Assembly: GCA_016715885.1 (NCBI GenBank)
Contig: JADJXL010000022.1
Coordinates: 11,588-75,587 of the forward strand
Direction of reading: 5' to 3'
Source of the DNA: Polyangiaceae bacterium
GTDB taxonomy: Bacteria > Myxococcota_A > Polyangia > Polyangiales > Polyangiaceae
DNA length: 64,000 nt
Position numbers and translations under genes: made by a program. The notes under the pieces are model-generated. The model did no database searches. It saw nothing but the letters and a program-made list of their open reading frames with translations, and was not told the DNA's origin. This document shows, one piece after another, positions 1 to 3,489 of the stretch (positions are counted from its first letter, which is position 1; every line of letters begins with the position of its first letter).

Positions 1-3000
1 GTTGGGCAACTGTTGATCAACCTCCGATCTCCGGCGAATACGATTCGTTGGTTATCTACGTTGAATGGTGGCACTGGCGATGATTACATAGCGACGGTTT
101 TCGATTCCAATGCAACGATGCCCGTCACCGCCGTTGGTGCGCCATTCACGGGCGTCTTCCGACCGGAATACACGTTGACGCAATACGAGGGAACCGATTT
201 CCTGAATCAGAATGCGCTTGGTTCATGGAGCCTCGGAGTGGCCGATAACACGACCGGAACGTCGGGCACGGTCGAACGCTGGAGCTTGGCGTTGTGTTTG
301 GACACCGTCGTATTTTGCGGCAATGGGGTCGTCGATCCCGGCGAAGAGTGCGACGACGCCAATACGAACGATGCCGACGCGTGCACGCGCTTCTGCACCG
401 CCAACGAAGGGTGCGGTGACGGAAACATCGACCCCGGCGAACAATGTGACGACAGCAATGGTGCAGTGGGTAATGATTGTTCGCAGACGTGCGAAGTTGC
501 AATCACGTGCGGCGCTGGAGAGACGTCGATCGCCGTGACGAATGAAACGCCGACGTCGATCCCCGACAATAACTTGACATTCACGAGCTTGCCCGTGAAC
601 GTGGCGACGACGGGCAAAGTGCGAAAGGTGATTGCCACGATTGGCGGCATCAACCACACGGCAGATGCCGACTTGGACATTCAGCTACGTTCACCGAGCG
701 GCACGGTGCGCATCTTGTCCGATGACAATGGTGGCACCGGCGACAATTACAACACGACGATTTTCGACGACTCGGCAGGTGGAATGGTCGTCAATGCGAG
801 TGCGCCATTCAGATCGAAGTACCGTCCCGAGCAATCGTTGTCGACGACACCCGGGACCGATTTCCTGAGCGAGCCTGCCGCTGGAGAATGGGCGCTCGAG
901 GTGCGAGACGACGCGGCAACCAATGTCGGCACGTTCCTGAGCTGGACCCTCACGATGTGCGTTGCGACCGAGTGCGGAGATGGCAATCTGGGGCTCGGCG
1001 AAGAATGCGATGACGGCAATATGGTCGACAACGACCTTTGCTCCAACGGTTGTCAGCTCAATGGGGGCTGTGGCAATGGCAAGGTCGATGTCGGCGAAGC
1101 ATGCGACGACGACAACTTGGTATCGGGTGACGGCTGTTCCCCGACGTGCGACGTCGAATTGACATGCGCCCCTGGACAAACGTCGATCATGGTTGCAAAC
1201 GACACGCCGTTCGCCATGCCCGATGCGAATACGTTCGTCGATGCGCCCGTGAGCATTCCGACGGCGGGCGCCGTGAAGAAAGTCGTTGCGGTCGTCGGAG
1301 GCATCACGCATCCGAATGCGGCGGACGTGGACATCCAATTGCAATCGCCCATCGGCACGACACGCGGCCTGTCCAATGACCGAGGTGGCACGGACGACAA
1401 TTACAGATCGACGATCTTCGACGACTCGGCAACGACGGGCATTGCGTTTGCCACGGCGCCATTCTCCGGAAGATACCGGCCCGAGCAGACGATGTCGACG
1501 ACTGCGGGAACGGATTTTGCCCATCAAAACGCATTGGGCATCTGGAACTTGAAGGTCAGGGACGACGCCGTGGGTTTCCTCGGTACGTATGAAAGCTGGC
1601 GTTTGCTCATGTGCCTCGATACCGTCACGTATTGTGGCAATGGCATCGTCGATCCGGGCGAGGAATGCGACGACGGCAATCAAGTGGATGCCGATGCGTG
1701 CAGCAATGTGTGCAAAATGAATGAAGGTTGCGGTGATGGCAACATCGACGCTGGCGAATGGTGCGACGACAACAACGTGACCTCGGGCGATGGTTGTTCG
1801 TCGACCTGCGAAGTCGAAGTCACTTGCGCACCCGGTGAAACGCCGGTCATCGTCTCGGATGACCCCGCGAGCCCCATTCCGGACAACAATACGTTCGTCG
1901 ACTTCCCCCTGACGGTTTCCACGATAGGCGGGGTAAAGAAAGCCATGGTGGTCATTCGCAGCATCGTTCATCCGAACGTCGCCGACTTGGACATCCAATT
2001 GCTCGGGCCGAATGGGATGGTGCGTAATTTGTCCGATGACAACGGCGGAGTGAACGACAACTACGCGTCGACGTTCATTGCAGACTCGTTCACGTCGGCC
2101 ATCACCGGTGGCGCGGCGCCGTTCAGCGGCAAATACCGGCCCGAAGCATCGCTATCGGTCAATCCCAGTGTGGACTTCTCGTTGAAGAACGCAGCGGGCA
2201 CCTGGACACTTCAAGTGCGCGACGACGCAGCGACGAATGCCGGCACTTTCCACGGCTTTACGCTGGCTCTCTGCGTCGATGCCGCGAGCTACTGCGGCGA
2301 TGGAATCACCGGTGCCGGTGAAGAGTGCGACGACGGCAATACCGTCGATAACGACGCGTGTTCCAATGGCTGCCAGTTTACGGACGGTTGCGGCGATGGG
2401 AACCTCGACCCCGGCGAACAGTGCGACGACAATGACGTGGTATCGGGCGACGGTTGCTCGGCCACGTGCCAATTCGACATCGCATGCGGCAACGGTGAAG
2501 TACCCGTCCTGTTGTCGAATACGACGGCTACGTCCATTCCCGAAAATCCGAACGGCGTATTCAGCACGATGGACGTCGCCCAGCCTGGTGTCGTGCGAAA
2601 GGTCATTGCGTCGCTCGGTATCACCCATGCGTCGAATTCCCAAGTCTTCGCCTTCCTCGATTCTCCCTACGGCGTCCGGCGATTGCTCGCTTCGGGACTC
2701 GCAGGCAGCAACCAGACTGCCACGATATTCAGCGACGATGCGGCCATCGCCATCACCGGTGGAACAGCGCCGTACACAGGTCGCTTCAGGCCTGCACAGA
2801 CCATTTCGAATGCGGCTGGTTTTGCAAATCAAACCGCCATGGGCACCTGGCGTTTGCACGTCGGCGATGGCACGACAGGGACGGTCGGGACGCTCAATTC
2901 GTGGCGCCTCGCCCTTTGCATCGACCCGAGCGTCACGACGGTCTGCGGCAATGGTTATGTGGAACCCGGAGAAACCTGTGACGATGGCAATACGACGAGC

Positions 3001-3489
3001 GCCGACGGTTGCTCATCGACCTGTCAGCTCGAATTCACGTGCCCACCGGGCCAAGTGACCATCATGCAATCGTCCACCGACGGCCCGTTGCTCATTCCCG
3101 ATAACTTGTCGGCCGGTGTTCAAAGCGTCATCAACCTGGGCGATGCCTACACGGTGACCCGAGCGGTTGTCGTGGTCAACTCGATTACCCACTCGGTCGT
3201 CGGCGATCTCATCACGACACTCATCTCGCCTGCGGGCACGTCGGTCACGTTGAGCGCGAATGTCGGTTCGAGCGGCGATGATTATGTATCGACGGTTTTC
3301 GATGCTGGTGCAGCAACGCCGATTGCGTCGGGGACTGCTCCGTTCCGTGGAGTTTACGCGCCGACGGGGGTCCTCCCCAACGTGACTGCTCAAACGTCGA
3401 AGGGCACGTGGACGCTCAAGGTCGCGGACGACAACAGCGGCGCTGCCGGCTTGTTGAAATCGTGGACCATTGCGCTTTGCGGTAATTAG
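1..3489 (+). CDS. Secreted modular protein (5'-truncated at window edge): at least 6 tandem proprotein-convertase-type P-domains alternating with pairs of Myxococcus Cys-rich repeats (CxxxG..D.[8 protein letters not shown])
   Basis: The ORF 13..3489 is open to position 1 in the same frame and the first residues (DLDI-like ...LRSP.GT...) lie mid-P-domain, so the gene starts upstream of the window. The P-domain signature (HT/HP..DLDIQL.SP.GT...L...GG..DNY..T.F.D..........G.W.L.V.D......G.L.SW.L..C) recurs 6 times and CGNG..D.GE.CDDGN-type Cys repeats recur 11 or more times. The module period is about 215 aa, or about 645 bp. Confidence 0.8.
   Translation, partial: [1162 protein letters not shown]

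What the first reader, a model, noticed from the sequence alone, without database searches (positions are those of the whole stretch)
1..3489. Array of standalone proprotein-convertase P-domains alternating with Myxococcus Cys-rich repeats
P-domains normally occur once, C-terminal to a subtilisin/kexin catalytic domain. Here at least six P-domains are strung together, each separated by two CGNG..[9 protein letters not shown] Cys-rich repeats. This gives a roughly 645-bp diverged tandem DNA repeat and many antisense pseudo-ORFs. The gene continues upstream of the window, so an S8 protease domain may or may not be present. Either way the multi-P-domain stalk is unusual and suggests a beads-on-a-string surface adhesin or spacer.
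Basis: partly seen in the sequence, partly recalled or inferred. Interest (0 to 1): 0.55.

Follow-up and report, generated by a model that had tools for sequence, protein, structure and literature searches.

The report
Protease-free P-domain and Cys-repeat surface protein
The window starts inside a real gene for a large, acidic, disulfide-rich protein made of six P-domains alternating with small cysteine-rich repeats. This design is common and already annotated in soil myxobacteria, although nobody has studied what it does, so it is an ordinary member of a known kind.

Summary

The claim that this is unusual does not hold. The gene follows a fixed family pattern, [Cys repeats]n-(P-c-c)m-P-c-P-stop, shared by 37 of the 120 best relatives in Polyangia (3-8 P-domains). 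The five closest full-length relatives have no S8 protease domain. At least 20 of the 37 have an N-terminal lipoprotein signal.

An exhaustive search found 26,172 cluster representatives with this P-domain. All 150 best have at least 2 copies and some have 18. Of seven sampled, only one has an S8 domain.

The most likely role is a non-catalytic, lipid-anchored surface or matrix protein that acts as a stalk or multivalent binder. That function is inferred, not shown. The true upstream sequence could not be recovered.

The parts
1..3489 (+). 3' part of one coding sequence (1,162 codons plus stop at 3487-3489). The N-terminal part lies upstream of the window.
   Evidence: No stop in frame +1; GC3 0.705. 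Relatives align over 93-100% of it.
1..297 (+). P-domain 1, truncated by the window edge (aa 1-99; matches positions 55-151 of the 151-position local P-domain profile)
316..507 (+). Cys-rich repeat pair 1 (aa 106-137 and 138-169; each C-x10-C-x10-C-x3-C with a GE.CDD motif)
508..960 (+). P-domain 2 (aa 170-320), with a Cys at its first and last residue
   Evidence: AF2 model pLDDT above 90 over this domain. Fold matches furin, Kex2 and ASP P-domains.
973..1164 (+). Cys-rich repeat pair 2 (aa 325-356 and 357-388)
1165..1614 (+). P-domain 3 (aa 389-538)
1633..1824 (+). Cys-rich repeat pair 3 (aa 545-576 and 577-608)
1825..2274 (+). P-domain 4 (aa 609-758)
2293..2484 (+). Cys-rich repeat pair 4 (aa 765-796 and 797-828)
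2485..2919 (+). P-domain 5 (aa 829-973), the penultimate domain. Best match is the penultimate P-domain of Polyangium sp. 6x1 P0002 (51%).
2944..3039 (+). Single Cys-rich repeat (aa 982-1013; [14 protein letters not shown], conserved at this position in relatives)
3040..3480 (+). P-domain 6 (aa 1014-1160), the terminal domain. The protein ends two residues later (…LCGN*).

Best explanation
The window holds the C-terminal two thirds of a non-catalytic, secreted modular protein. It belongs to a Polyangia family built as: lipoprotein signal, Cys-rich head, a run of TIGR02232/DUF4215 Cys repeats, then (P-domain + 2 Cys repeats) repeated, then P-domain, 1 Cys repeat, P-domain, stop.

Shown:
- The domain identities and the module order.
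- Ten invariant cysteines per module: 4 in each small repeat, plus one at the first and one at the last residue of every P-domain.
- A strongly acidic composition.
- No protease domain in the window or in the closest full-length relatives.
- A lipobox in most relatives, and no C-terminal sorting signal.

Inferred:
- The protein is exported and lipid-anchored by its N-terminus.
- The small repeats form rigid, disulfide-stapled connectors, probably Ca2+-binding.
- Each jelly-roll P-domain is closed by its own terminal Cys pair and displayed along this stalk, with the last P-domain at the far tip.
- The array then works as a multivalent binder or spacer in the cell envelope or extracellular matrix (adhesion to cells, polymers or prey), not as an enzyme.
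For: - Profiles: PF01483 x6, PF13948, TIGR02232 x9.
- Family pattern: 37 of the 120 best relatives have at least 3 P-domains and end in PcP. P-domain counts run from 3 to 8.
- No PF00082 in P0001-P0005.
- Lipobox in at least 20 of 37 relatives. In P0002 and P0003 it appears once the mis-called start is extended upstream.
- All 37 relatives end 2-5 residues after the last Cys.
- Invariant Cys pattern in 50 aligned modules.
- Composition: 47 Cys; 145 D+E against 47 K+R.
- The gene is native and intact in the window. GC matches the surroundings. Two independent environmental contigs are 99.8-99.9% identical with no indels, and inside the gene show 3 synonymous and 2 conservative changes.
- Literature: DUF4215 repeats occur in a diatom adhesive-trail protein (10.1101/2023.03.06.531300). 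Large Cys-rich extracellular proteins of Peribacteria with weak similarity to these repeat proteins were proposed to act in attachment (PMC4736985). In TraA a different Cys repeat is proposed to be a rigid stalk presenting a beta-sandwich domain (PMC3325183).
Against: - No member of this family has been studied experimentally. No ligand, location or phenotype is known.
- The window's own N-terminus, and so its signal peptide, was not seen.
- The exact protein is absent from the protein collection although its neighbours are present. The source annotation may therefore treat it as a pseudogene or partial gene.
- Gene neighbourhood is not conserved between the window and two Polyangium relatives, so context gives no functional clue.
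- Disulfide pairing, Ca2+ binding and rod geometry are inferred from sequence.
Confidence: 0.6

Rival explanations
1. Scaffold for proteases acting in trans. Each free P-domain docks, stabilises or activates a secreted peptidase that lacks its own P-domain, as proposed for the hypothetical 'planctosome' anchoring protein of Planctomycetes.
For: In convertases the P-domain (a C-terminal extension of the catalytic domain) is proposed to contribute to enzyme stability and to substrate binding and specificity (PMC3158780). A protease-free array of P-domains separated by small repeats was proposed to activate peptidases (PMC6461901). The array here has the same overall logic.
Against: The planctosome model is itself untested. 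No cohesin, dockerin or LTD domain is present. No protease gene lies next to the gene here or in two relatives. No evidence exists that a P-domain can act in trans.
Confidence: 0.08
2. It is the C-terminal stalk of a true subtilisin/kexin-type protease whose catalytic domain lies just upstream of the window.
For: The upstream DNA was not recovered. One unrelated giant protein, P0164, combines an S8 domain with 9 or more P-domains.
Against: The five closest full-length relatives align over 93-100% of the window protein and have only a Cys-rich head and DUF4215 repeats upstream, with no PF00082. All 37 proteins with the same module pattern show only Cys repeats before the first P-domain.
Confidence: 0.04
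3. Multivalent lectin. The P-domains are carbohydrate-binding jelly rolls that bind exopolysaccharide or prey cell-wall glycans. This is a specific version of the binder reading.
Against: Those matches are far weaker than the P-domain matches and are generic for jelly rolls. No sugar-binding motif was identified, and no glycan-related genes are conserved nearby.
Confidence: 0.18
4. The gene is broken (a pseudogene or assembly-damaged locus) in the source genome, and the window shows only its intact 3' remnant.
For: Neighbouring proteins (DoxX, EgtD, EF-Tu) are in the protein collection under NCBI accessions. No near-identical hit for this 1,162-aa product was returned.
Against: There are no stops in 1,162 codons, coding-type codon bias is present, and every structural Cys is conserved. 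Two independent samples carry the same sequence without indels, with mostly synonymous differences. A sequencing-error frameshift upstream in a metagenome-assembled genome would explain the missing protein record equally well.
Confidence: 0.1

Closest known systems
Polyangia 'proprotein convertase P-domain-containing / DUF4215 domain-containing' proteins (e.g. P0002 from Polyangium sp. 6x1, 1,871 aa; P0003 from Polyangium sorediatum, 1,816 aa; Kofleriaceae P0005)
   Same: Same module pattern, …(P-c-c)m-P-c-P-stop. 50-56% identity over 93-100% of the window protein. The last two P-domains match by position. The single [14 protein letters not shown] repeat sits before the terminal P-domain. The protein ends just after the last Cys.
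   Different: The number of P-domains differs: 3-8 in the family, most often 4, and at least 6 here. The length of the N-terminal Cys-repeat run differs. Internal modules are not clearly one-to-one. Gene neighbourhood is not conserved.
P-domain of kexin/furin-type proprotein convertases and of Aeromonas sobria serine protease (PDB 1p8j, 4omc, 2id4, 3hjr, 3wqb)
   Different: In those enzymes there is a single copy fused after an S8 catalytic domain, which it packs against. Here there are six copies and no catalytic domain in the window or in close relatives. Each copy is bracketed by a conserved Cys pair.
Hypothetical 'planctosome' anchoring protein of freshwater Planctomycetes (PMC6461901)
   Same: A large exported protein with multiple P-domains separated by small acidic repeats and no protease domain of its own.
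   Different: Its spacers are thrombospondin type 3 repeats, not TIGR02232. It has a lamin-tail domain anchor and a cohesin domain, neither of which is found here. It comes from a different phylum.
TraA cell-surface receptor of Myxococcus xanthus (PMC3325183)
   Same: A myxobacterial exported protein with a beta-sandwich domain carried on a Cys-rich tandem-repeat region, which the authors propose is a rigid stalk.
   Different: TraA has a PA14 domain rather than a P-domain, and its Cys repeats are TIGR04201 rather than TIGR02232. It has a C-terminal MYXO-CTERM tag, and one binding domain rather than an alternating array. None of these matched here.
Cys-rich repeat in pappalysin-2 (PDB 8sl1, residues 881-912)
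   Same: The only solved chain that matches the TIGR02232-type repeat by sequence: [28 protein letters not shown], E=1.6e-5.
   Different: It is a single copy inside a vertebrate metalloprotease, not a repeated connector between P-domains.

Membership tests
Pfam PF01483 P_proprotein (P-domain) | Profile match above the curated gathering score | tested here: met
   214.4 bits against a cut-off of 21, E=1.6e-64, six stretches.
Pfam PF01483 P_proprotein (P-domain) | Beta-jelly-roll fold superposable on the furin, Kex2 and ASP P-domains | tested here: met
NCBIfam TIGR02232 / Pfam PF13948 (Myxococcus cysteine-rich acidic repeat, DUF4215) | Profile match above cut-off, and the four-Cys spacing with an acidic GE.CDD core | tested here: met
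   TIGR02232 scores 254.4 bits against 20.8, with nine stretches. PF13948 scores 130.4 bits against 27. The pattern C-x10-C-x10-C-x3-C is invariant in 50 modules.
Kexin/furin-type proprotein convertase (subtilase S8 with P-domain) | Peptidase_S8 catalytic domain (PF00082) N-terminal to the P-domain | tested here: not met
   No PF00082 in the 1,162 aa of the window or in the five closest full-length relatives. The window's own upstream DNA could not be read.
Polyangia family [lipobox]-head-c(n)-(Pcc)(m)-PcP (informal, defined here) | Module order ending …P-c-c-P-c-P, with the stop 2-5 residues after the last P-domain Cys | tested here: met
   The window is PccPccPccPccPcP and ends LCGN*. 37 relatives share the ending.
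Polyangia family [lipobox]-head-c(n)-(Pcc)(m)-PcP (informal, defined here) | N-terminal lipoprotein signal peptide and a run of DUF4215 repeats before the first P-domain | not testable with these tools
   The N-terminus lies upstream of the window. It is present in at least 20 of 37 relatives.
TraA-like myxobacterial receptors | PA14 domain, TIGR04201 Cys repeats, MYXO-CTERM (TIGR03901) tag | tested here: not met
   NCBIfam at E<=0.1 returns only TIGR02232, and Pfam returns no PA14. The definition of the family is taken from PMC3325183.
Planctosome-type anchoring protein (PMC6461901) | Lamin-tail domain, TSP type 3 repeats between the P-domains, cohesin domain | tested here: not met
   None of these Pfam families match in the window protein or in P0001-P0005. 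Only the general 'P-domains separated by small repeats' layout is shared.
Fibrillar adhesin (stalk of repeated domains plus an adhesive domain plus an anchor) | Repeated stalk domains, a recognised adhesive domain, and a cell-surface anchor | tested here: inconclusive
   The repeated modules are present. No recognised adhesive domain was found. An anchor (lipobox) is seen only in relatives. The fibrillar adhesin survey lists a P_proprotein-like cluster under 'ambiguous function'.

The most novel reading that the evidence does not exclude
The free P-domains are docking or folding sites for secreted peptidases that lack their own P-domain. The lipoprotein would then be a cell-surface rack holding several proteases at fixed spacing: a myxobacterial counterpart of the proposed planctosome, used for extracellular digestion of prey or polymers.
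Probability: 0.07. Interest if true: 0.65.

Novelty: new member of a known kind. Interest (0 to 1): 0.22.

Why it matters
The main value is in correcting an assumption. The rule 'one P-domain behind a subtilisin domain' holds for eukaryotic convertases but not for bacteria, where protease-free tandem P-domain proteins are abundant. This gene is a typical example.

The small new contribution is the fixed module pattern of the Polyangia family: lipobox, Cys-repeat run, (P-c-c)m, P-c-P, with 3-8 P-domains. It gives a clear, testable target for anyone asking what free P-domains and DUF4215 repeats do. Both are widespread and neither has been characterised experimentally.

Tried and rejected
- Tandem Repeats Finder found nothing because the units are only about 65% identical. 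An offset self-match and the repeat finder were used instead.
- Attempts to recover the upstream sequence all failed.
  - The genome-contig scan returned only relatives at 49% identity or less.
  - Exact look-ups of the neighbouring DoxX and bestrophin genes returned only 2.8-3.0 kb Logan contigs that end inside the gene.
  - Two metagenome scans, one with an exact 30-mer and one with a back-translated peptide pattern, gave 0 hits.
- The source was identified as an NCBI 'Polyangiaceae bacterium' metagenome-assembled genome with a 325,804-bp contig, but that contig could not be read with these tools.
- phmmer-based module extraction was unreliable on this repeat protein and was replaced by Cys-anchored parsing.
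- The first literature query was swamped by the unrelated encapsulin 'P-domain'.
- The afdb50 fold library was unavailable.
- Horizontal transfer was considered and rejected, because GC is uniform across the window.
- A conserved operon partner was considered and rejected, because neighbourhoods differ between the window, Polyangium sp. 6x1 and P. sorediatum.
- TraA membership was rejected because the repeat family differs and there is no PA14 or MYXO-CTERM.
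Full report
**The sequence.** Frame +1 is open from base 1 to a stop at 3487-3489, giving 1,162 codons with no stop. GC is 0.553, 0.515 and 0.705 at codon positions 1, 2 and 3, as expected for a real gene in a genome of about 60% GC. The window is 58-64% GC throughout, so the gene is compositionally native. Antisense frames contain open runs of up to 486 codons. The four longest overlapping ORFs tested, three antisense and one in another + frame, have no Pfam match, so they are by-products of codon bias.

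**Domain content.** Pfam finds six P_proprotein stretches (PF01483, E=1.6e-64, 214 bits against a cut-off of 21) and DUF4215 (PF13948, E=2.8e-38). NCBIfam finds nine TIGR02232 'cysteine-rich acidic repeat' stretches (E=2.4e-77) and nothing else at E<=0.1. HMMs built locally from aligned modules give the order P cc P cc P cc P cc P c P. The first P-domain is cut by the window edge: only profile positions 55-151 are present. The last junction has one Cys repeat rather than two. Each small repeat is C-x10-C-x10-C-x3-C around a GE.CDD core. Each P-domain is about 150 residues and begins and ends with a Cys.

**Repeat divergence.** P-domains within the window are only 32-57% identical to one another. 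At DNA level the units are 657, 660, 660 and 555 bp long and 64-67% identical. The self-match fraction at offset 660 is 0.409 against a mean of 0.259 (sd 0.022).

**Is it really a P-domain?** I aligned 50 modules (Cys pair, P-domain, Cys pair) from the window and its relatives and predicted the structure of the window module. Mean pLDDT was 81.8. It was above 90 across the P-domain and about 61-77 in the Cys repeats.
- Foldseek against the PDB returned only P-domains in its first 27 hits: Aeromonas sobria serine protease, furin and Kex2 (E 3e-8 to 6e-6, probability 1.00).
- A profile search of PDB sequences matched ASP residues 448-503. For the Cys repeat it matched pappalysin-2 residues 881-912.

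**What lies upstream?** The true upstream DNA could not be recovered.
- The species-representative genome scan found only relatives at 49% identity or less.
- Exact look-ups of the adjacent DoxX and bestrophin genes found only 2.8-3.0 kb Logan contigs that end inside the gene.
- Two metagenome scans found nothing.
- Cluster look-ups identify the source as an NCBI 'Polyangiaceae bacterium' MAG: DoxX is MBK9264461.1, EgtD is MBK9264467.1, and the contig is 325,804 bp.
- No near-identical protein for the target gene was returned by the protein search. The source annotation may therefore treat it as a pseudogene or partial gene. That cannot be told apart here from an assembly frameshift.

**The family.** The five closest full-length relatives are 1,793-2,011 aa, 50-56% identical, and align over 93-100% of the query. 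They include Polyangium sp. 6x1, P. sorediatum and Kofleriaceae. They contain only PF13948 and PF01483, with no Peptidase_S8.

Architecture strings for the 120 best relatives show a strict pattern: a run of Cys repeats, then (P-c-c) repeated, then P-c-P.
- 37 proteins have at least 3 P-domains and end in PcP.
- P-domain number runs from 3 to 8 and is most often 4. The window has at least 6, which is at the upper end.
- All 37 stop 2-5 residues after the last P-domain Cys. The window ends LCGN*.
- At least 20 of the 37 begin with a lipoprotein signal, typically …LAAC followed by GDN or GGDDG. Most of the rest are visibly truncated or mis-started.
- In the two Polyangium genomes, extending the called start upstream reveals MTS.R.W…GASSGC followed by a Gly/Ser linker.

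The last two P-domains of the window match best the last two of P0002 (51% each). Internal modules are not clearly one-to-one. The array is therefore old, with conserved ends and some turnover in the middle.

**Strain-level stability.** Two independent environmental contigs (SRR11674018 and DRR438489) are 99.9% and 99.8% identical to the window over 2,988 and 2,788 bp, with no indels. They cover the last 1.7 kb of the gene. Inside the gene there are three synonymous and two conservative changes. No copy-number variation is seen at strain level in the part covered.

**How unusual is the design?** A P-domain-only profile was run against 1.84 billion cluster representatives.
- It matched 26,172 proteins at E<=1e-3, 11,789 at E<=1e-10 and 1,560 at E<=1e-30.
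- All 150 best hits have at least 2 copies, and several have 12-18.
- Seven of them were scanned with Pfam. The results were: 10 P-domains with HYDIN/ASH Ig-like domains (two proteins); 5 P-domains with a T9SS sorting tail; 5 with thrombospondin type 3 repeats; 8 alone; 6 with DUF4215; and one giant protein with an S8 domain plus 9 or more P-domains.

The premise that P-domains normally occur once behind a subtilisin domain holds for eukaryotic convertases but not for bacteria.

**Function.** No experimental work exists on this family. The paper library mentions DUF4215/TIGR02232 in only three papers, and none is functional.
- One reports twelve such repeats in a diatom adhesive-trail protein.
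- One notes large Cys-rich extracellular proteins of Peribacteria, with weak similarity to these repeat proteins, that may act in attachment.
- In subtilases, C-terminal extensions such as the P-domain are proposed to contribute to enzyme stability and to substrate recognition or binding (PMC3158780).

Gene neighbourhood gives no help. Downstream of the gene lie bestrophin, DoxX, a collagen-repeat protein and a MopE-motif protein. The two Polyangium loci have unrelated neighbours.

My best reading combines several features: the lipobox, the lack of any C-terminal tag, ten invariant Cys per module, an acidic composition (145 D+E against 47 K+R) and the lack of a catalytic domain. Together these point to an exported, N-terminally lipid-anchored, disulfide-stapled stalk that displays jelly-roll domains and acts as a multivalent binder or spacer.
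- An inferred detail is that the Cys at each end of a P-domain pair with each other. The count supports this: 4+4 Cys lie in the two small repeats, which leaves exactly two.
- That pairing would make the chain enter and leave each P-domain at the same point, so the domains would hang off a Cys-repeat backbone rather than lie in line. This could not be checked without model coordinates.
- TraA of Myxococcus is a useful functional analogue, with a beta-sandwich domain on a proposed rigid Cys-rich stalk. It is not a relative: its repeats are TIGR04201, and it has PA14 and MYXO-CTERM, none of which match here.

**Verdict.** The feature itself is an ordinary member of a populous, database-annotated and experimentally unstudied family. 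It is a new member of a known kind and of low interest. The most novel reading not excluded is a protease-docking scaffold, at about 7% probability.

Noticed in passing
window 5187-7379 (-): A 730-aa protein with a long collagen triple-helix repeat region (PF01391, E=1.1e-61; GPTG/GPQG triplets) and a non-collagen C-terminal domain of about 150 aa. Local GC rises to 0.72-0.74. The region is internally repetitive at DNA level: the Logan contig gives a second match at 85%.
   Followed up: partly
window 7666-9363 (+): A 565-aa protein with three MopE-type putative metal-binding motifs (PF11617, E=4e-24). This is another Cys-containing extracellular-type repeat protein close to the target gene.
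   Followed up: no
window 15600-17863 (+): An adjacent EgtD-like histidine methyltransferase (PF10017, E=2e-95) and an EgtB-like DinB_2 + FGE-sulfatase protein. Together they look like an ergothioneine biosynthesis pair.
   Followed up: no
window 56266-58349 (+): Four tRNA genes, then tuf (EF-Tu, 396 aa), then a fifth tRNA. The identical EF-Tu sequence carries two NCBI accessions in the same MAG (MBK9261926.1 and MBK9264496.1), which suggests two tuf copies.
   Followed up: partly
window 1-3489 (source record): The neighbouring proteins are in the public protein collection under NCBI accessions (Polyangiaceae bacterium MAG, 325,804-bp contig). No near-identical entry exists for the P-domain protein itself. 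It may be annotated there as a pseudogene or partial gene, possibly because of an assembly frameshift upstream.
   Followed up: partly
L082 about 9960-10000 and L083 about 9855-10000: The annotated starts of the Polyangium relatives P0002 and P0003 look too far downstream. In-frame upstream extensions give a conserved lipoprotein signal, MTS(V/A)R(M/I)W…GASSGC, followed by a Gly/Ser linker.
   Followed up: yes
window 27986-31378 (+): A 1,130-aa class II (B12-dependent) ribonucleotide reductase with a C-terminal TSCPD domain. The barrel domain is matched in two stretches.
   Followed up: no
window 35247-37950 (-): A bacterial dynamin-family GTPase (PF00350, E=3e-32) next to an M48 peptidase.
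   Followed up: no
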